Shown one piece after another: positions 1-17,542 of a stretch of DNA of 17,542 nucleotides. The stretch is taken from IMG/VR virus record IMGVR_UViG_3300045988_108697. One strand, written 5' to 3'. Under the pieces are notes generated by a model. That model ran no database searches. It saw only the letters and a program-made list of their open reading frames with translations, and was not told where the DNA came from. The position numbers were made by a program, and so were the translations under genes. The DNA is from a virus. Numbering within the stretch: the stretch's first letter is position 1; the number at the start of each line of letters is the position of its first letter.

Positions 1-119
1 AGAAGATGACTAGGCGAGTGGCATGGAGCCTTGAAGATATAGAAAAAGCCTCGGACTTCTTTCATGTGAAGCCCGAGGCGTTGGTAGCGGGGCATGGATT
101 TGAACCATGGACCTCTGGG
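1..119. repeat. Direct terminal repeat, copy 1 (exact match to 17424-17542)
   Basis: Bases 1-119 (agaagatgactagg...gaaccatggacctctggg) recur identically as the last 119 bases. The unit length is 17,423 bp. One ORF reads continuously across the junction. Confidence 0.95.
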
Positions 120-188
120 GCTACGCCCCGGCCCATGGTCCAAATCCATGCCGGCCTGAGCCGATTATCACTAATCCTAGCGGCGTGA
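1..188 (+). CDS. 3' part of the same repressor ORF (track ORF 6-188). The unique tail 120-188 encodes ATPRPMVQIHAGLSRLSLILAA.
   Basis: The frame of track ORF 6..188 is in phase with ATG 17264 through the repeat (17429-17264 = 165 nt). The joined ORF is 115 aa, with TGA at 186-188. Confidence 0.8.
   Translation, partial: KMTRRVAWSLEDIEKASDFFHVKPEALVAGHGFEPWTSGATPRPMVQIHAGLSRLSLILAA
82..119 (-). other. Putative attP core: mimic of a tRNA 3' half (anticodon-stem 3' strand, variable loop, T arm, acceptor 3' strand, CCA). Not a complete tRNA.
   Basis: Minus strand 119->82 reads CCCAG AGGTC CATGG-TTCAAAT-CCATG CCCCGCT A CCA. This gives a canonical GGTTCAAATCC T loop with a 5-bp stem, a 7-nt acceptor strand, discriminator A and CCA. 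Bases 120-160 supply no anticodon loop, D arm or 5' acceptor strand. The core ends 85 nt upstream of the integrase ATG. A second copy lies at 17505-17542. Confidence 0.7.
91..152. repeat. Imperfect 23-nt inverted repeat flanking the edge of the att core, with an inner GGGGC-TAC-GCCCC palindrome
   Basis: 91-113 is ggcatggatttgaaccatggacc. The reverse complement of 130-152 is ggcatggatttggaccatgggcc (21/23 identical). The inner palindrome spans 117-129. Confidence 0.85.
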
Positions 189-204
189 GGCACGATGATG
201 TGCC

Positions 205-1035
205 ATGAACGCTAAGAAGTTGCAGCCGCCACCTGAGTGGCGAGTGAGCGTGGAAGACTGGGTGAAGTCCCTGATTGCCAGTGGGTATAGCGAAGACACG
301 GTGCGGTGCCGGCGCTACAAGCTCACGCACGCGGCCATAGGTTTGGACAAACCGCCCGTTGACGTTACCACCGGCGATCTGGTGTCTTGGATGGCCGGCC
401 AGCATTGGAAGCCGGAAACGCTGAAGGCGTACAGGAGCACGCTAACGTCGTTTTTCGGCCGTTTGCAGCGAACCGGCGCAAGGCCGGACAACCCGGCAGC
501 CGATTTGCCGAAGGTCAAGCGTCCGAAGGCGCACCCGCGGCCGTGCCCCGACAAGTATATTCTTGCGGCGCTGGCGAAGGCGGACGAAACCGAAACGCTG
601 ATGCTGCGGCTTGCGGCCGAGTGCGGTTTGCGGCGAGGTGAGATAGCGGGCGTGAACTCGCGGGATGTCATGGACGATCTGCTGGGCAAGTCGCTAATAG
701 TGCGCGGCAAGGGCGATAAACAGCGCATAGTGCCGTTGCCCGACGATCTGGCCGAAGCCATAGAGTCGTGCGGCGGTTGGCTGTTCCCCGGCCGGTGGCA
801 AGGCCATGTCGAGGAAAGCTACGTGGGAAAGCGTATAAGTCGTCTGCTGCCAGAGGGGTACGGCGCGCACAGCCTCCGCCACCGGTACGCCACGGCGACA
901 TACGCGGCCACGTATGACTTGTATCTGGTGGCAAGGCTGCTGGGCCATGCGTCGGTCGAGACGACGCAAATCTACGTGGCGATGCCCGACGCGCGGTTGC
1001 GCGCCGGGCTTGATGCTGTGCTACTCGATGCCTAG
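205..1035 (+). CDS. int: Tyrosine recombinase / phage integrase (276 aa)
   Basis: Catalytic signature: GLRRGEI (Arg), HSLRHRYAT (H-x-x-R), LLGHASVETTQIYV (His...Tyr). It lies next to the tRNA-like att core. Confidence 0.92.
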   Translation: MNAKKLQPPPEWRVSVEDWVKSLIASGYSEDTVRCRRYKLTHAAIGLDKPPVDVTTGDLVSWMAGQHWKPETLKAYRSTLTSFFGRLQRTGARPDNPAADLPKVKRPKAHPRPCPDKYILAALAKADETETLMLRLAAECGLRRGEIAGVNSRDVMDDLLGKSLIVRGKGDKQRIVPLPDDLAEAIESCGGWLFPGRWQGHVEESYVGKRISRLLPEGYGAHSLRHRYATATYAATYDLYLVARLLGHASVETTQIYVAMPDARLRAGLDAVLLDA

Positions 1036-9863: not shown

Positions 9864-10027
9864 TGGATCACCTCGATGTCGATAAGGTCGGTGCCGGCAG
9901 TGGTGGCGGTCACGGTCTGTGGCGCTGTGTCTGGTGTGATTGTGGCTTTGATCTCGGTATTATCGCCCGCGGTGATGGTTACACTGGTCGGCGTAGTGCT
10001 AAGGCCCGTGGGCGTCACCCTTTTGGG
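9860..10027 (-). CDS. -1 frameshift extension of the major capsid protein, carrying the N-terminal two thirds of a Big_2 Ig-like domain (about 53 aa)
   Basis: The -1 frame is open from 10048 to TGA 9862-9860. It reads PK-RVTPTGLSTTPTSVTITAGDNTEIKATITPDTAPQTVTATTAGTDLIDIEVIQ. No usable start codon gives 60 aa or more, so it is absent from the ORF track. Confidence 0.6.
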   Translation of the reverse strand, partial: PKRVTPTGLSTTPTSVTITAGDNTEIKATITPDTAPQTVTATTAGTDLIDIEVIQ

Positions 10028-11589
10028 AACTTCACCGGAATGAGGCCGTCAACGTTGGTGGCCGCAACCGCCATGTAGCCGTAGACGCTGTAGTTCTCGG
10101 TTAGCTTGGTGGGGTCTCCGTCGCTGAGCTGGGTCGGGCCGCCGCTTTCCCATACCGTCACCGATTCGGGGTCGATGAAGCACGCCGTGCCGTTCGGGGC
10201 CTTCGGCAGCATTTGCACCGGCAGCCGAAGGAACTTGCCGGCGATGCCGGTCAGGTCGAAGTTGCCGATGGTGTCCGATCCGTCGCCGGACAGGTCGAAG
10301 AATCGGGAACCGCTGTCTTTCAAGGCGATAAGCGAGGCCATAACGTCTTTGCTGACGCCAAGACGGGTGAGGTTCACGTTACGGTCGTCGGCCAGTTCGG
10401 CGGCGTTCATAATCAGCGTGGCCCACTGGTCGATGGTCATGGCCGCAAGCGTGGCGGGCGCGTCAATCTTGTTGGCGTTCTTTGTCGCGTCGCGCTGAGA
10501 GGCGATGGTGCCGTACAGGTAGTTGCGGACGGCGGTTTCGGTCGCCTTCGCGTAGGCGTTGCGCAATGCGGCCAGTGCCGTGTTGAGCATAGGCGTGGTG
10601 GAACGCTCGATTACCTGACGGCTCAGGGTGGTGTAGCCGCCGTAGGTGTCGATTGACACGCTCTTGGTGCCGAACGTGACCTTGCCGAACTGCAACGCGG
10701 CGCCCTCGTTCTCCTGCTTGTCCACCGTGGCGGTGTCGGACGCCACCACGTTGTATTCCATCGTCATGCCCTTGTCCGGCAGCGTGTCATGGGTGAGGAT
10801 ATTGGTCACCTTGCGGCGCTGCTCGATCAGTCGCAAATCATCCCTAATCCATGCCACCTTGTTGCCGGTGTCGCCGGTGGCGATGAGGTCGCGGCACTCG
10901 TGCATGAGCTGCACTGCCGCTTCGTCGCCACGGTAGAGCGCCTGAAGATAGTCGCCGGCCGTGCGATACTCAGCGCCCATGACCTTGGCCGGCTCACTGT
11001 CGGTGTTCCTGGCAATGGCGGCTTTCATGCTGCGCTGTTCGTCCATGATGCCGTTCAGCTTGTCGTTGATTTCGTTGAGGTCCATTTCGTTTCCTTTCTG
11101 GTTTCCGGTTTCCCTCATGTTTTCGTGGGTAGTTTCGCTGCTGCGCTGCGAAGTGATCTTCGCGGCCTCGTAGGCCGGCCACGACACCACCGAAACCTCC
11201 AACAATCGGACGCGTCTGCGGTGGGTAACGCCCTGCTTGTCCACCTCGTCGTCAATCGGCATGAAGCCGACGCTGAGCGAGTCCAGCGCGCCGTCGCGCA
11301 ACAGGGCCACCACGTCCCGGCCGCGCTGCGTGTCGCTGATATGCGCCGTGATATGCAAGCCGTCCTCTTGGGGGTGTGCGTCGAGGATACGGCCGATAAG
11401 CTCCCCGTGCTGATAGCAGAGCTTCGCCGTGTCCGTGTCGTCGAAAACGCAATCGGCGTCGAACGTCTCGGCACCGTCCCATGTGCTGATGACGCTGCCG
11501 TAGGGCACGGCCACACCCTCCAACGTGTGCCCGTCGCCCTCTTCGGCCGCGCGTAGGCACACGCCCTTAAACCCGATTTCATGCTTCAT
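10015..11589 (-). CDS. Fused prohead protease (HK97 S78/U35-like), scaffold-like linker and HK97-fold major capsid protein (524 aa)
   Basis: The N-terminal roughly 145 aa (...EGVAVPYGSVISTWDGAETF...LCYQHGELIGRI...DGLHITAHISDTQRGRDVVALLRDGALDSLSVGF...LLEVSVVSWPAYEAAKI) matches the prohead protease pattern. A charged coiled segment follows. The remainder is capsid-like (...SVSIDTYGGYTTLSRQVIERS...). Confidence 0.85.
   Translation of the reverse strand: MKHEIGFKGVCLRAAEEGDGHTLEGVAVPYGSVISTWDGAETFDADCVFDDTDTAKLCYQHGELIGRILDAHPQEDGLHITAHISDTQRGRDVVALLRDGALDSLSVGFMPIDDEVDKQGVTHRRRVRLLEVSVVSWPAYEAAKITSQRSSETTHENMRETGNQKGNEMDLNEINDKLNGIMDEQRSMKAAIARNTDSEPAKVMGAEYRTAGDYLQALYRGDEAAVQLMHECRDLIATGDTGNKVAWIRDDLRLIEQRRKVTNILTHDTLPDKGMTMEYNVVASDTATVDKQENEGAALQFGKVTFGTKSVSIDTYGGYTTLSRQVIERSTTPMLNTALAALRNAYAKATETAVRNYLYGTIASQRDATKNANKIDAPATLAAMTIDQWATLIMNAAELADDRNVNLTRLGVSKDVMASLIALKDSGSRFFDLSGDGSDTIGNFDLTGIAGKFLRLPVQMLPKAPNGTACFIDPESVTVWESGGPTQLSDGDPTKLTENYSVYGYMAVAATNVDGLIPVKFPKG
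10021..10027 (-). promoter_or_regulatory. Candidate -1 slippery heptamer C_CCA_AAA at the end of the capsid gene
   Basis: The minus strand reads ttC CCA AAA ggg tga. The heptamer is in the correct X_XXY_YYZ phase and ends 3 nt before the stop codon. Confidence 0.6.
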
Positions 11590-14689: not shown

Positions 14690-15415
14690 TCACCATTCCG
14701 GCCTTGAAGCCACAGTGACGCGATCACTGCGAAGCCCAAGGCGTGCGAGCGTGGCCCGGCGTTCACGTTGCCTTGCGTCCACCAAAGCTTGTGAGATGTG
14801 CAAGCCGTACCATTGGCGCACCAACCGCTTGGCCTGCTCGGTCTCGGCCCGCTCCCACTCCACCTCGAAGCCGGGATCTATCACCCGCACGTCGTAGTCA
14901 AGGCTTATCCACTCGTCAAGCATCCTAGGGTGTCGCTTGCTGCTTGGCATGGTGCGGATCATCCACACGTCAATAGGCTCCTGCGTGATGGCGAACTGGC
15001 GATAGGCTGCGGACCACGCCATGGCAACCGCCCGCCGCTGCGCCATGCTGGGCGACTCCGGTAGGCGCATGGCCCGGGCCAACGCCGGCCACGACACAAC
15101 CGGGTCGCCTTGCTGCCTGTGAGCCTCCACCCATTCCACGGCCTCACGGTCGCAGGAACCGGGCGGCGTGACCACGATATGCAAGCGCGCCCCATAACCG
15201 TAAAGCACGCGGTCCTGGCGGCTGGCGTTGCAATGCTTGCACGCGCGTCGGATGTTCGCCACGGTGTCCATGCCGCCATGCGCGTAAGGCACTATGTGGT
15301 CGTCTTCCTCGCCCACACCGGTGCAACCCGGCAGCCTGAGCCAACAAGCGTTGCCCCACGTCTCGATCACCTTGGCCCGCACAAGCGGGTCGATGGTCTG
15401 CCTGCGCGCCATCAC
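14690..15415 (-). CDS. HNH endonuclease fused to a roughly 165-aa C-terminal domain with a degenerate P-loop-like motif (241 aa)
   Basis: HNH motif: CWLRLPGC...DHIVPYAHGGMDTVANIRRACKHCN. Then ARLHIVVTPPGSCDRE (Walker-A-like but lacking GK[ST]) and later DVWMIRT / DVRVIDPG strands. Start is GTG 15415 or ATG 15412, overlapping the upstream stop. Confidence 0.85.
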   Translation of the reverse strand: MMARRQTIDPLVRAKVIETWGNACWLRLPGCTGVGEEDDHIVPYAHGGMDTVANIRRACKHCNASRQDRVLYGYGARLHIVVTPPGSCDREAVEWVEAHRQQGDPVVSWPALARAMRLPESPSMAQRRAVAMAWSAAYRQFAITQEPIDVWMIRTMPSSKRHPRMLDEWISLDYDVRVIDPGFEVEWERAETEQAKRLVRQWYGLHISQALVDARQRERRATLARLGLRSDRVTVASRPEW

Positions 15416-15606
15416 CTGCCACGCTTCCTAGCCCGCACCCACATGTCGAGATCGGCCAGCTCATACAAGCACGGGGAGTTGATGGCGTCGCTCGCCTTAA
15501 ACCATTCCGGCCCGCGATTATCGGCCCTCATACGCTCCATCGTCCTAGGGGAGACGCCAAGATAGATAGCAGCCTGTTCAGTGGTCAGTTTCGCGCGCGG
15601 GTTCAC
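15412..15606 (-). CDS. Excisionase/MerR-family HTH DNA-binding protein (64 aa from GTG 15606; the track gives TTG 15621)
   Basis: LTTEQAAIYLGVSPRTMERMRADNRGPEW is a typical Xis/AlpA-type HTH. GTG 15606 forms a GTGA overlap with the upstream stop. Confidence 0.7.
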   Translation of the reverse strand: MNPRAKLTTEQAAIYLGVSPRTMERMRADNRGPEWFKASDAINSPCLYELADLDMWVRARKRGR

Positions 15607-15944
15607 AGTAGACCAACCCAAGCCTTGAGCGATGTCAACAACTCGGCACGGTCGAACATCTGCGCACTTCCGCGCCTCTCGGGCTTGCCCAAGATGCCGT
15701 CGCTGATAAGCTGCTGCATCACATGGTCGCCGCTAGGGTCGGCCGTCGGCGCGATCTTGTTCAGTCGAAGCATACTGATGGCAAGGGAACGCGCAATAGT
15801 GTCCGTTCCAACAGTGTCATGCTCCAATTGCCTGATATTCCATCGAATGGCGTTCTTGATGTCCTTCGTGCGCTGGGCCTTGCTCTTCGGCACCGTCCTC
15901 TTGGCACGTCGGCGTGTTGGCTTGTAATCAACCGAATAACCCAT
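15603..15944 (-). CDS. Hypothetical protein with a strongly basic N-terminus (113 aa)
   Basis: MGYSVDYKPTRRRAKRTVPKSKAQRTKDIKNAIRW... SD GAGG lies 8 nt upstream. It is the first gene downstream of the DnaA-box repeats. Confidence 0.7.
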   Translation of the reverse strand: MGYSVDYKPTRRRAKRTVPKSKAQRTKDIKNAIRWNIRQLEHDTVGTDTIARSLAISMLRLNKIAPTADPSGDHVMQQLISDGILGKPERRGSAQMFDRAELLTSLKAWVGLL

Positions 15945-16695: not shown

Positions 16696-16928
16696 TCCTG
16701 GGCTCCTTCCCATTCACGACGGGCACGCCTCGCGTGCGTCATCGCCTGGTTGATCGCGCCCTTCATCGCCTGAAGGTCGCCCATGTCCAAGCCATCGAAC
16801 CCGAACGTGCTTCCGGCCACCTTGATGCGGCAGGCGAAGCGGTAGGGATTGCCGCCGGTGCATTCCGACGGGTCGATGTCCTGCACCTGGAAGTAATTGC
16901 TGGTGCATTCCGGATTGAAAACGCTCAT
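16692..16928 (-). CDS. Hypothetical early protein (78 aa)
   Basis: ATG 16928 overlaps the stop of the HTH gene (ATGA 16925-16928). Composition is protein-like. No motif recognised. Confidence 0.65.
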   Translation of the reverse strand: MSVFNPECTSNYFQVQDIDPSECTGGNPYRFACRIKVAGSTFGFDGLDMGDLQAMKGAINQAMTHARRARREWEGAQE

Positions 16929-17239
16929 TTCACCTCCAACGGAGCTCGCCCAAGGAGCACATCGGCGCTGACATGCAAGAGTTCGGCAAGCTCGTTTATC
17001 TCATTCACACTGAAAGCGATTCGGCCAGTGCATTTCTGCGAGACCGTGGACCGTGCGCAGTGCAATGTTTCAGCGACTTCCGCCTGTGTCAGGCCATTGA
17101 GCCCCATAAGGCGTTTGACCTTTTCACCTACAGTTGGTAAATCTATTAAAATGTTTGTCACACTTACATCTAACCACGAATGTAGTTGGGCCTGCTCGTT
17201 CGGCGTGTCGTGTTCTATCTTTTTGTTAGTTTCGGTCAT
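16925..17239 (-). CDS. Cro/C1-type HTH protein heading the lytic-strand operon (cro-like, 104 aa)
   Basis: VGEKVKRLMGLNGLTQAEVAETLHCARSTVSQKCTGRIAFSVNEINELAELL is an XRE-family HTH. It is divergent from the repressor candidate. Confidence 0.85.
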   Translation of the reverse strand: MTETNKKIEHDTPNEQAQLHSWLDVSVTNILIDLPTVGEKVKRLMGLNGLTQAEVAETLHCARSTVSQKCTGRIAFSVNEINELAELLHVSADVLLGRAPLEVK

Positions 17240-17263
17240 AGCACATAAGTTTACTTATGTGCT
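17240..17263. promoter_or_regulatory. Perfect 11-2-11 palindrome filling the entire gap between the divergent start codons; candidate operator with overlapping promoters
   Basis: AGCACATAAGT-TT-ACTTATGTGCT. Adding the flanking CAT/ATG start codons extends the symmetry to 14-2-14 (17237-17266). Confidence 0.8.
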
Positions 17264-17542
17264 ATGACAACAGCAACAATCAGCCCTAAGGTCGCAGCTC
17301 AGGCCGAATCTGTCAGTTTGCAGGATATAGTCACGCGAAATATGAAAGTGGCCATGACTCTTCGCAATGTCAAGCAAAAGGATCTGGCGAACGCTCTTGG
17401 CGTCGATAGGTCTTCGATTTCACAGAAGATGACTAGGCGAGTGGCATGGAGCCTTGAAGATATAGAAAAAGCCTCGGACTTCTTTCATGTGAAGCCCGAG
17501 GCGTTGGTAGCGGGGCATGGATTTGAACCATGGACCTCTGGG
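17264..17542 (+). CDS. Cro/C1-type HTH repressor candidate, 5' part (residues 1-93). It runs off the window end and continues at 120-188.
   Basis: ATG at 17264. Translation: MTTATISPKVAAQAESVSLQDIVTRNMKVAMTLRNVKQKDLANALGVDRSSISQKMTRRVAWSLEDIEKASDFFHVKPEALVAGHGFEPWTSG. HTH signature is QKDLANALGVDRSSISQKM. It is co-oriented with int and divergent from the lytic operon. It is absent from the ORF track because no stop occurs before the window end. Confidence 0.85.
   Translation, partial: MTTATISPKVAAQAESVSLQDIVTRNMKVAMTLRNVKQKDLANALGVDRSSISQKMTRRVAWSLEDIEKASDFFHVKPEALVAGHGFEPWTSG
17424..17542. repeat. Direct terminal repeat, copy 2 (exact match to 1-119)
   Basis: Same 119-nt string as the window start. 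Position 17542 corresponds to position 119. Confidence 0.95.

What the first reader, a model, noticed from the sequence alone, without database searches (positions are those of the whole stretch)
1..204. attP core lies inside the repressor ORF, and the tail that integration would remove ends in LAA: an integration-dependent-immunity layout
- Joining the window ends gives one 115-aa HTH ORF (ATG 17264 to TGA 186-188). The integrase follows on the same strand.
- Residues 81-93 (LVAGHGFEPWTSG) are encoded by the antisense of a tRNA 3' half (82-119). The tRNA-like identity stops exactly at a codon boundary (119/120).
- Site-specific recombination in this core would swap the last 22 codons (ATPRPMVQIHAGLSRLSLILAA) for antisense host tRNA sequence.
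- If the target tRNA has a CAU anticodon loop (CTCATAA), the junction reads ggg-tta-tga, giving a stop after one extra codon.
- The lost tail ends in L-A-A, the classic ssrA/ClpXP-type C-terminal degron.
- This is the logic described for mycobacteriophages BPs, Brujita and Charlie: the free phage makes an unstable full-length repressor, and only integration yields a stable truncated one.
- I do not know of it being described for a phage of about 17 kb with this gene set.
Basis: partly seen in the sequence, partly recalled or inferred. Interest (0 to 1): 0.8.

Follow-up and report, generated by a model that had tools for sequence, protein, structure and literature searches.

The report
Repressor gene split by phage integration
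This 17.4-kb Bifidobacterium phage has its chromosomal attachment site inside its own repressor gene, so integrating into the host initiator-tRNA gene removes a 22-residue tail ending in LAA; the layout is real but was already predicted for close relatives in 2018.

Summary
The window is a circular 17,423-bp phage genome; its ends are a 119-nt assembly overlap.

- **ORF:** a 115-aa HTH ORF (ATG 17264 to TGA 186-188) crosses the join and ends in ...LSLILAA.
- **Attachment site:** bases 82-119 are the exact antisense of the 3' part of the Bifidobacteriaceae initiator tRNA-fMet(CAU) gene. Identity stops at 119/120.
- **Natural junctions:** integrated relatives carry a repressor 98-100% identical over residues 1-93, fused to the antisense tRNA 5' half. 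An attR junction (L037) carries the same tail and a 95%-identical integrase next to host flank.
- **Tail conservation:** seven of the nine other tail variants that carry the T-arm copy end in LAA and two in LTA, with synonymous codon changes.
- **Integrase:** it is 43-46% identical to the integrases of Mycobacterium cluster G and Gordonia cluster CW phages.

The layout is therefore integration-dependent immunity, but it is not new. Mavrich et al. 2018 (PMC6109161) predicted it for the ~18-kb tRNA-Met prophages Bb423phi2 and 689b-1, which use the same att core. Degradation and immunity remain untested.

One possibly new detail is a conserved sense-oriented copy of the tRNA T-arm inside the tail-coding DNA.

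The parts
17264..17542 (+). Repressor (rep) ORF, codons 1-93. It continues at 120 after the circular join. 17424-17542 duplicates 1-119.
   Evidence: Translation. HTH_26 and BetR pass Pfam's cut-offs, and PHROG repressor families match. Residues 1-93 are 98-100% identical in integrated relatives.
1..119 (.). Terminal overlap of the circular assembly, identical to 17424-17542. Its inner end at 119 coincides with the attP/attL divergence point.
   Evidence: One search finds a perfect 119-nt direct terminal repeat. One search shows attP and attL diverge at 119/120. Reading this as an assembly-graph branch point is an inference.
82..119 (-). att common core. It is the 3' part of the initiator tRNA-fMet(CAU) gene (anticodon-stem 3' strand through CCA), antisense to rep codons 81-93 (LVAGHGFEPWTSG).
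   Evidence: The 35-mer is exact in at least 120 Bifidobacteriaceae genome contigs and at least 120 IMG/VR contigs. It also matches the published att of Bb423phi2 and 689b-1.
120..188 (+). Viral-form-only tail of rep: codons 94-115 (ATPRPMVQIHAGLSRLSLILAA) plus the TGA stop. In a prophage it stays with int at the other junction.
   Evidence: The attR junction L037 carries the same tail next to host flank.
177..185 (+). C-terminal Leu-Ala-Ala codons (CTA GCG GCG), the candidate ssrA-like ClpX tag.
   Evidence: seven of the nine other tail variants that carry the T-arm copy end LAA and two end LTA, with synonymous codon variation. The degron function is inferred from the BPs system (PMC4557955).
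130..152 (+). Sense-oriented pseudo-copy of the tRNA V-loop and T-arm, inside the tail-coding DNA. It forms a 23-nt inverted repeat with 91-113.
   Evidence: inverted repeat, 91% complementary; hairpin, -66.6 kcal/mol for 75-204, z=-4.65; present in all ten LAA/LTA tail variants (this window's included), in two reading-frame registers.
48..79 (-). Intrinsic-terminator-like hairpin plus T-run, directly downstream of the tRNA CCA on the tRNA strand and antisense to rep codons ~69-80. It would terminate the regenerated tRNA gene.
   Evidence: site 17502->17471, equal to 79->48; inverted repeat 45-59/68-82. The host attB has its own terminator at the same place. The function is inferred.
205..1035 (+). 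Tyrosine integrase, 276 aa. It is short (about XerC/XerD length) and starts 17 nt after the rep stop.
   Evidence: Pfam Phage_integrase E=1e-19 and PHROG 1. It is 43-46% identical over 93-96% of its length to Gordonia cluster CW and Mycobacterium cluster G integrases.
16925..17239 (-). Divergent cro-like HTH gene, first gene of the long minus-strand operon.
   Evidence: HTH_31 and HTH_3 and the gene order.
17235..17268 (.). Perfect 16+2+16 palindrome spanning both divergent start codons. It is a candidate operator.
   Evidence: two half-sites, none expected by chance. The function is inferred.
15412..15621 (-). 69-aa HTH_17 (excisionase-type DNA-binding domain) ORF, a candidate recombination directionality factor.
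   Evidence: Pfam HTH_17 E=2.8e-7. The role is inferred.

Best explanation
The window is the free, circular form of a small temperate siphovirus of Bifidobacteriaceae. Its lysogeny module has the integration-dependent-immunity layout.

**Shown here**
- The repressor gene (17264 to 188 across the join) contains the attachment core (82-119).
- That core is the antisense of the 3' part of the host initiator tRNA-fMet gene.
- Integration by the downstream tyrosine integrase joins rep codons 1-93 to the antisense of the tRNA anticodon loop.
- The complement of the CAU anticodon loop then supplies Leu-stop (TTA TGA). The prophage therefore encodes a 94-aa repressor, while the free phage encodes a 115-aa form ending in LAA.
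- The 22-codon tail moves, with int, to the other prophage end.
- The tRNA gene is rebuilt from phage DNA, followed by a terminator-like hairpin and T-run in the phage DNA.

**Inferred by analogy with mycobacteriophage BPs**
- The LAA end targets the viral form for ClpXP-type proteolysis.
- Stable immunity therefore arises only after integration.
- int is expressed from the rep promoter only in the free form.
For: - **Circular genome and ORF:**
- **Host gene and exact core:**
- **Natural attL junctions:** 28 junctions reach the tRNA 5' half. Their repressor N-termini are up to 100% identical to the window's, and all end ...EPWTSGL*. In total 218 core occurrences give TSGL*.
- **Four-way comparison:** attP, attL, attR and attB break at 119/120 and at 79-85. 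The prophages L058 and L093 are 94-96% identical to the window over ~7 kb.
- **attR junction:** L037 has the identical tail and a 95%-identical integrase.
- **Tail ends:** LAA in seven and LTA in two of the nine other T-arm-copy variants, with synonymous third-position changes.
- **Integrase homology:** related to cluster G (Angel gp32) and Gordonia cluster CW integrases. These comparators show the same design. The Jeanie repressor is 116 aa and ends ...LLSLVAA. The Angel repressor has ...EGFEPPTF... encoded by an antisense T-loop in the same frame as GFEPWT here.
- **Published definition of the system:** PMC4557955 and PMC3694055.
- **Published prediction for sibling prophages with the same att core:** PMC6109161.
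- **Complete virion and lysis gene set:**
- **Host ssrA tag:** a tmRNA carrying the B. breve att 26-mer encodes a tag ending ...FAAAA.
Against: - No experiment here shows degradation, or that the two forms differ in activity.
- The repressor has no detectable sequence similarity to the BPs/Angel or Jeanie repressors.
- Some relatives with the same rep-core design have tails that do not end in AA...WALVD in 7 loci...ILTA, and ...ITRVA.
- A second phage type at the same tRNA (B-type) has an HTH repressor ending ...M[VI]LAA that integration does not truncate. An LAA end is therefore not by itself incompatible with the prophage state.
- The integrase C-terminus (…AVLLDA; relatives LGA, LQA, LSA, RLI) is only weakly ssrA-like.
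Confidence: 0.8

Rival explanations
1. The core-in-ORF layout is real, but the peptide tail is a passenger. The DNA after the core is conserved as a recombination or RNA element (the inverted pseudo-core and hairpin). The repressor simply reads through it to the next stop, and both forms work equally well.
For: - The pseudo-T-arm copy is conserved at the DNA level in two different reading frames.
- The region forms an unusually stable hairpin.
- Some relatives have non-AA tails.
- B-type repressors keep an LAA end in the prophage.
Against: - The last three codons stay L-A-A or L-T-A across all ten tails that carry the T-arm copy. Changes within the Leu and Ala codons are synonymous, and the only replacement is Ala to Thr in two variants.
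- The frame shifts upstream are always compensated, so the ORF still ends in ...ILAA or ...SLAA.
- The Gordonia cluster CW phage Jeanie, which lacks the pseudo-core, also ends ...LVAA.
- The same design is experimentally a degron in BPs (PMC4557955).
Confidence: 0.12
2. The plus-strand HTH ORF is not the immunity repressor. It could be an int regulator or an antirepressor, and truncating it on integration would have no bearing on immunity.
For: - Only generic HTH family matches were found.
- There is no homology to characterised integration-dependent-immunity repressors.
- A second HTH protein is encoded divergently.
Against: - The position and orientation match rep in BPs, Angel and Jeanie: upstream of int on the same strand, and divergent from the first gene of the lytic operon.
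- The divergent HTH heads the long minus-strand operon that holds the virion-structure and lysis genes, as a cro-like gene would.
- Mavrich et al. assign the equivalent gene as Rep.
Confidence: 0.06
3. The window is not a free phage. It is a mis-circularised prophage contig whose ends are the att direct repeats, so the 115-aa ORF is an assembly chimera.
For: The terminal repeat ends exactly at the core boundary, position 119.
Against: - The 119-nt repeat includes 81 nt of rep coding sequence (1-81). A real attR does not have this; L037 has host flank there.
- The same tail-int arrangement is seen independently in L037 and L246.
- Rep-core-tail-int arrangements recur in other contigs: L031, L047 and L070.
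- Break points at graph branches also explain the other contigs that end just after TTATGA.
Confidence: 0.02

Closest known systems
Bifidobacterium breve prophages Bb423phi2 and 689b-1 (Mavrich et al. 2018, Sci Rep 8:12772, PMC6109161)
   Same: - The host family is the same, and so is the target: tRNA-Met (the initiator type).
- The att core is the same. The published 39-mer is TGGTAGCGGGGCATGGATTTGAACC[A/T]TGGACCTCTGGGT; window 82-119 matches 38 of its 39 positions.
- Size is ~18 kb against 17.4 kb here, and GC is 61.4% against 61.3%.
- int lies next to one att site and rep next to the other.
- The in-silico viral repressor has an extra C-terminal tail with an ssrA-like tag, and the authors explicitly interpret this as integration-dependent immunity.
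   Different: - The window is the free attP form observed directly, not a reconstruction.
- Its tail is 22 residues and a different variant; the paper reports 18 extra residues.
- Identity with the tRNA stops one base earlier.
- Direct sequence identity to Bb423phi2 could not be measured, because those genomes are not in the collections available here.
Mycobacteriophage BPs and cluster G integration-dependent immunity (Broussard et al. 2013; Villanueva et al. 2015, PMC4557955)
   Same: - Gene order is cro-like, then rep, attP and int.
- attP sits in the 3' part of rep and overlaps an antisense tRNA T-arm. The Angel repressor has ...EGFEPPTF... in the same antisense T-loop frame.
- The prophage form is shorter: 103 against 136 aa there, 94 against 115 aa here.
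- The integrase is homologous, at 43% identity over 95% of its length.
   Different: - The repressor is not detectably homologous.
- The host phylum branch, target tRNA and genome size (42 kb against 17 kb) all differ.
- The BPs tail ends ...DKAS rather than LAA.
- Angel has no sense-oriented pseudo-T-arm copy in its tail-coding DNA.
- The integrase here is much shorter: 276 aa against 398 aa as annotated in Angel.
Gordonia cluster CW phages (Jeanie, McGonagall, EricDab, GMA5; ~17 kb)
   Same: - They are the closest annotated integrases, at 44-46% identity.
- Genome size is the same, and rep lies directly upstream of int.
- The Jeanie repressor is 116 aa, crosses an antisense tRNA T-arm and ends ...DRLLSLVAA.
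[quoted passage not shown]
   Different: - The repressor is not detectably homologous.
- The T-arm is read in a different frame (RDSNPEP).
- The host and target tRNA differ.
- No pseudo-core copy is present.

Membership tests
Integration-dependent immunity system (BPs type) | The attP common core lies inside the repressor ORF, near its 3' end. | tested here: met
   The core at 82-119 covers codons 81-93 of a 115-codon ORF. Its core status is shown by the attP/attL/attR/attB comparison.
Integration-dependent immunity system (BPs type) | Integration produces a shorter, prophage-encoded repressor. | tested here: met
   Natural attL junctions with 98-100% identical N-termini end ...TSGL* at 94 aa, against 115 aa for the viral form.
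Integration-dependent immunity system (BPs type) | [quoted passage not shown] | tested here: met
   This is met at the sequence level only. The ORF ends LAA, and the ending is conserved among related tails with synonymous changes.
Integration-dependent immunity system (BPs type) | The tagged viral form is degraded and inactive, while the short form is stable and confers immunity. | not testable with these tools
   This needs protein-stability and immunity assays. It has been shown only for BPs (PMC4557955).
Integration-dependent immunity system (BPs type) | rep lies immediately upstream of int on the same strand, with a cro-like gene divergent from rep. | tested here: met
   The rep stop is at 188 and the int ATG at 205. 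The divergent HTH gene is at 16925-17239. Angel and Jeanie have the same order.
Integration-dependent immunity system (BPs type) | The tyrosine integrase belongs to the family used by these systems. | tested here: met
   It is 43% identical to cluster G gp32 and 44-46% to cluster CW integrases over 93-96% of its length, with E values of 1e-49 to 1e-59.
Integration-dependent immunity system (BPs type) | The integrase also carries a C-terminal degradation signal. | tested here: inconclusive
   The window integrase ends ...AVLLDA. Relatives end LGA, LQA, LSA, LGS, RLI or LAV. These are hydrophobic and often end in Ala, but none is a clear LAA.
Integration-dependent immunity system (BPs type) | The repressor is homologous to characterised repressors of this system (not a strict requirement, since the known systems have diverse repressors). 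| tested here: not met
   There are no tblastn hits in mycobacteriophages or Gordonia phages. BLASTP against the Jeanie and Angel repressors gives no alignment.
tRNA-Met-integrating ~18-kb bifidoprophage group (Bb423phi2 / 689b-1) | A 39-bp att core at the 3' end of tRNA-Met. | tested here: met
   Window 82-119 equals 38 of the 39 published positions (one search compared). The target was identified as initiator tRNA-fMet(CAU).
tRNA-Met-integrating ~18-kb bifidoprophage group (Bb423phi2 / 689b-1) | An ~18-kb genome with ~61% GC, made up mostly of structural genes plus an int/rep module. | tested here: met
   The genome is 17,423 bp with 61.3% GC. It encodes terminase, portal, a protease-capsid fusion, tape measure, amidase and HNH.
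tRNA-Met-integrating ~18-kb bifidoprophage group (Bb423phi2 / 689b-1) | Nucleotide or protein similarity to Bb423phi2 or 689b-1 themselves. | not tested
   Those B. breve genomes are not in the searchable annotated collections. The IMG/VR contig L030 has a 19-residue tail and the extra core base, which fits the published description.

The most novel reading that the evidence does not exclude
The bifidophage version of the switch may contain an extra functional element that has not been described.

- It is a sense-oriented pseudo-copy of the tRNA V-loop and T-arm, at 130-152 in the window, embedded in the tail-coding DNA 5-11 nt beyond the core.
- It is conserved in all ten LAA/LTA tail variants, in two reading frames.
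- It forms a 23-nt inverted repeat with the true core.

It could be an accessory integrase-binding site that makes attP differ from attB for this short integrase. It could instead be an mRNA hairpin that couples tail translation and int expression. After integration the complete inverted repeat lies only at the int-side junction (attR), away from rep.
Probability: 0.35. Interest if true: 0.45.

Novelty: new member of a known kind. Interest (0 to 1): 0.3.

Why it matters
- **Evidence for a published prediction:** it gives a clean natural-sequence demonstration of a switch that was only predicted in silico for bifidobacterial prophages. The free attP form, many attL junctions, one attR junction and empty attB sites were all recovered.
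- **Breadth:** the same repressor-through-tRNA design occurs in at least 28 attL junctions from Bifidobacterium genomes and gut viromes. Related prophage-form repressors also occur in Gardnerella and Alloscardovia.
- **Practical use:** bifidobacteria are central to the infant gut. A minimal three-gene lysogeny switch with a defined 38-bp attB in the initiator tRNA gene could be a compact integration tool for these genetically difficult hosts.
- **Limit:** conceptually it adds a member, and perhaps an accessory element, to a known mechanism. It is not a new mechanism.

Tried and rejected
- **A real tRNA gene on the plus strand.** ARAGORN called tRNA-Gln at 69..158. This is rejected. Rfam finds no tRNA at gathering score, and only sub-threshold generic-hairpin (miRNA) hits at a relaxed threshold. 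The inverted repeat explains the call.
- **Crossover in the anticodon loop or the dyad centre (121-125).** This is rejected. The attP spacer GCTACGC and the attB spacer TTATGAG share no identity, so strand exchange must lie within 82-119. The published Bb423phi2 att mismatch has CCTTGG at the int-side junction and CCATGG at the tRNA side. That places exchange on the T-loop/acceptor side of the mismatch, which is an inference.
- **Close relatives among deposited phages.** Megablast found only a 342-bp tape-measure match to Arthrobacter phage RootBeer.
- **Repressor homology to known integration-dependent-immunity repressors.** None was found.
- **The 'TTATGATCCC' junctions as a longer-core attP of the same phage type.** This is rejected. 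They are tandem junctions with a different, larger prophage (B-type) whose own repressor converges on the core.
- **The 8-bp inversion site CAGGGTTA** reported for the sibling prophages. It is absent from the window.
- **Broussard et al. 2013** could not be read because it is not held. Its features were taken from PMC3694055 and PMC4557955.
- **Host ssrA tag.** The search with the B. breve tmRNA att 26-mer mostly hit unrelated tRNA arrays. Only L255 gave a matching tmRNA, and its host assignment is by that 26-mer alone.

Full report
**1. What is in the window**

The two ends of the window are a perfect 119-nt direct repeat (1..119 equals 17424..17542), so the unit is a 17,423-bp circle with 61.3% GC.

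Reading across the join, ATG 17264 to TGA 186-188 gives a 115-aa protein:

MTTATISPKV...KPEALVAGHGFEPWTSGATPRPMVQIHAGLSRLSLILAA

- It matches Cro/C1-type HTH families. HTH_26 and BetR pass Pfam's cut-offs, and PHROG repressor families match.
- Seventeen bases after its stop, a 276-aa tyrosine integrase starts on the same strand (205-1035, Phage_integrase E=1e-19).
- A second HTH gene (16925-17239) diverges from it. This gene heads a long minus-strand operon.
- That operon encodes an HTH_17 protein, HNH, large terminase, portal, a protease-capsid fusion, tape measure, tail proteins, an amidase and a small membrane protein.

The window is therefore a complete small temperate siphovirus.

**2. 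The tRNA-like stretch and its target**

The reverse complement of 82-119 is CCCAGAGGTCCATGGTTCAAATCCATGCCCCGCTACCA.

Nearly all the genome hits are Bifidobacterium, Gardnerella, Alloscardovia or other Bifidobacteriaceae.

In the genomes the 35-mer is preceded by CGCGGGGTGGAGCAGCTCGGTAGCTCGCTGGGCTCATAA.

**3. Direct evidence for the recombination products**

tblastn of the repressor, integrase and cro-like protein against the fetched loci gave these results:

- **attL:** in 28 loci a repressor homologue runs through the core into the antisense tRNA 5' half. Several are 98-100% identical to the window over residues 1-93. In every one the ORF reads GGG TTA TGA and ends ...EPWTSGL*.
- **All core occurrences:** 218 of them give this ending.
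- **attR:** L037 carries an integrase 95% identical to the window's and the identical 22-residue tail, joined through the core to host flank.

The four-way comparison of attP, attL, attR and attB shows that identity between phage and host stops exactly at 119/120. On the other side it stops at 79-85, depending on the host flank. The prophages L058 and L093 are 94-96% identical to the window over about 7 kb.

Integration thus replaces codons 94-115 with Leu-stop, converting a 115-aa protein into a 94-aa protein. The stop codon comes from the complement of the anticodon loop.

**4. The contig break**

The contig ends on the last base shared by attP and attL. Several other IMG/VR contigs end just after TTATGA. 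That is the last base shared by attL (TTATGAG...) and a tandem junction (TTATGAT...).

This pattern is what assembly-graph branch points would give. It suggests, by inference, that both free and integrated forms were present in the source sample.

**5. Is the tail meaningful?**

Collecting all attP and attR forms gives ten variants of the tail type that carries the T-arm copy, this window's included, plus two other tail classes.

| Tail after ...TSG | Loci | Ending |
|---|---|---|
| ATPRPMVQIHAGLSRLSLILAA | window, L037 | LAA |
| ATARPMVQIHAGRSRLSFILAA | L246 | LAA |
| DTRGPRFKSMGLLSLSKLSLAA | L055, L074, L111 | LAA |
| DTRGPWFKSMGLLSLSKLILAA | L247 | LAA |
| NMVAQRSTVQIHEARFSAFILAA | L105, L108 | LAA |
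| NMVAQRNMVQIHDGRLSAFILAA | L060 | LAA |
| YPRGPRSKPMPRLILSLAA | L030 | LAA |
| FLDGPRGPRFTSMTTLKPNVILAA | L047 | LAA |
| DTRGPRFKSMGLLSLSELILTA | L028, L248 | LTA |
| DTRGPRFKSMVLLSLSSKLILTA | L052, L084 | LTA |
| AKPPWIYPDYWALVD | 7 loci (e.g. L013, L031) | LVD |
| LCDTT...ITRVA or ...ITKVA | L123, L155, L191 | VA |

- In the ...ITRVA/...ITKVA class, a TCATAA-to-GCATAA change in the loop copy removes the stop.
- The Leu-Ala-Ala codons vary synonymously: CTA or TTA; GCG, GCT or GCC; GCG, GCA or GCC.
- The middle of the tail is read in two different frames.
- Both points are the signature of selection on the C-terminal peptide.
- A tmRNA gene carrying the published B. breve tmRNA att 26-mer encodes a tag ending ...FAAAA. 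An Ala-Ala C-terminus therefore resembles the likely host ssrA tag, although that host assignment is tentative.

**6. Comparison with known systems**

The integrase finds 427 phage records. Gordonia cluster CW phages of ~17 kb lead at 44-46% identity, followed by Mycobacterium cluster G phages at 43% (gene 32).

Cluster G includes BPs, the experimental model for integration-dependent immunity. [quoted passage not shown]

- Angel and Jeanie have the same rep-then-int order.
- The Jeanie repressor (116 aa) ends ...LLSLVAA.
- The Angel repressor contains ...EGFEPPTF..., an antisense T-loop read in the same frame as GFEPWT here.
- The repressors themselves are not detectably homologous.

**7. Prior description**

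Mavrich et al. 2018 (PMC6109161) described two ~18-kb B. breve prophages, Bb423phi2 and 689b-1 (61.4% GC).

- They are integrated at tRNA-Met with the att sequence TGGTAGCGGGGCATGGATTTGAACC[A/T]TGGACCTCTGGGT.
- int lies next to one att site and rep next to the other.
- The authors state that in-silico reconstruction gives viral repressors with 18 extra C-terminal residues, including ssrA-like tags, as in integration-dependent immunity systems.

The window's core is 38 of those 39 bases. The finding is therefore a new member of a described group, seen here as the free form.

**8. Details that may be new**

- **(a) Pseudo-core.** The tail-coding DNA holds a sense-oriented pseudo-copy of the tRNA V-loop and T-arm (130-152).
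  - It forms a 23-nt, 91%-complementary inverted repeat with 91-113 and a very stable hairpin (-66.6 kcal/mol for 75-204, z=-4.65).
  - It is 87-100% identical to the tRNA over 23-32 nt in all ten LAA/LTA tails, in two frame registers. It is absent from the LVD and RVA classes and from Angel and Jeanie.
  - Mavrich et al. do not mention it.
  - I infer that it is either an accessory integrase site or an mRNA hairpin. After integration the complete inverted repeat lies only at the int-side junction.
- **(b) Terminator.** Directly after the CCA on the tRNA strand there is a terminator-like hairpin and T-run (79->48), antisense to rep codons ~69-80. It replaces the host terminator seen at attB.
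- **(c) Palindrome.** A perfect 34-bp palindrome (17235-17268) spans both divergent start codons. It is a candidate operator.

**9. Cautions**

- Larger B-type prophages at the same tRNA encode an HTH repressor ending ...M[VI]LAA. It lies upstream of the core in the tRNA-sense orientation, so integration does not truncate it. An LAA end alone does not prove inactivity in the prophage state.
- The integrase C-terminus is only weakly tag-like.
- Proteolysis and immunity were not, and could not be, tested here.

**10. Verdict**

It is a new member of a known kind, of modest interest (0.3). Experiments on the degron and on the pseudo-core are the steps that would add something.

Noticed in passing
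window 91-113 / 130-152: This is a 23-nt inverted repeat. Its right arm is a sense-oriented pseudo-copy of the tRNA-fMet V-loop and T-arm inside the repressor tail-coding DNA. It is conserved in all ten LAA/LTA tail variants in two reading frames, and absent from the LVD and RVA classes and from Angel and Jeanie. It also causes ARAGORN's spurious tRNA-Gln call at 69..158.
   Followed up: partly
window 48-79 (minus strand; same as 17471-17502): An intrinsic-terminator-like hairpin and T-run lies immediately downstream of the tRNA CCA, antisense to rep codons ~69-80. The phage appears to supply a terminator for the tRNA gene it rebuilds. The host attB has its own terminator at the same position.
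   Followed up: partly
window 17235-17268: A perfect 16+2+16 palindrome (GTCATAGCACATAAGT TT ACTTATGTGCTATGAC) covers the start codons of both divergent HTH genes, which are only 24 bp apart. It is a likely operator. No further copies of the half-site occur in the genome at up to 2 mismatches.
   Followed up: partly
window 119/120 and 17542 (contig end): The assembly overlap ends exactly at the attP/attL divergence point. Several IMG/VR relatives (L006, L051, L058, L067, L079, L119) end right after TTATGA, where attL and tandem junctions diverge. Contig ends seem to mark assembly-graph branch points between integrated and free forms.
   Followed up: partly
L116 7573-7974, L009 372-806, L026 1592-1993, L043 2099-2533, L112 198-596, L091 8434-8835, L036 8242-8676: A second, larger prophage type (B-type) sits at the same tRNA. 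Its HTH repressor (132-144 aa) ends ...PAM[VI]LAA* about 22 nt before a GGGATCATAA-plus-core copy, in the tRNA-sense orientation. Its LAA end is conserved with synonymous changes but is not removed by integration. Tandem lysogens of B-type and small phages occur.
   Followed up: partly
L159, L204 (Gardnerella); L160, L143 (Alloscardovia): Prophage-form repressor homologues run through the antisense tRNA in L159, L160 and L204, ending ...VAGHGFEPWTSGL*. In all four loci the integrase homologue (49-50% identity) is in the same locus. In L159 it lies on the opposite strand close to the rep-tRNA junction, suggesting a layout different from the window's.
   Followed up: no
L123, L155, L191: In these elements the attP copy of the anticodon loop reads GCATAA instead of TCATAA. 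This removes the TGA stop and lets the repressor ORF continue for 27 residues (LCDTT...ITRVA or ...ITKVA), an acidic tail that does not end in LAA.
   Followed up: no
window 15412-15621 (minus strand): A 69-aa HTH_17 (excisionase-type) ORF lies in the early minus-strand operon and is a candidate recombination directionality factor. BPs-type systems were proposed to work without one.
   Followed up: no
window 10015-11589 (minus strand): A single 524-aa ORF combines a prohead protease (Peptidase_S78) with a major capsid protein domain.
   Followed up: no
L255 7110-7482: A tmRNA gene whose 3' end carries the published B. breve tmRNA att 26-mer. ARAGORN predicts the tag ANDNFVPAFAAAA, which ends in AAAA rather than LAA.
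   Followed up: no
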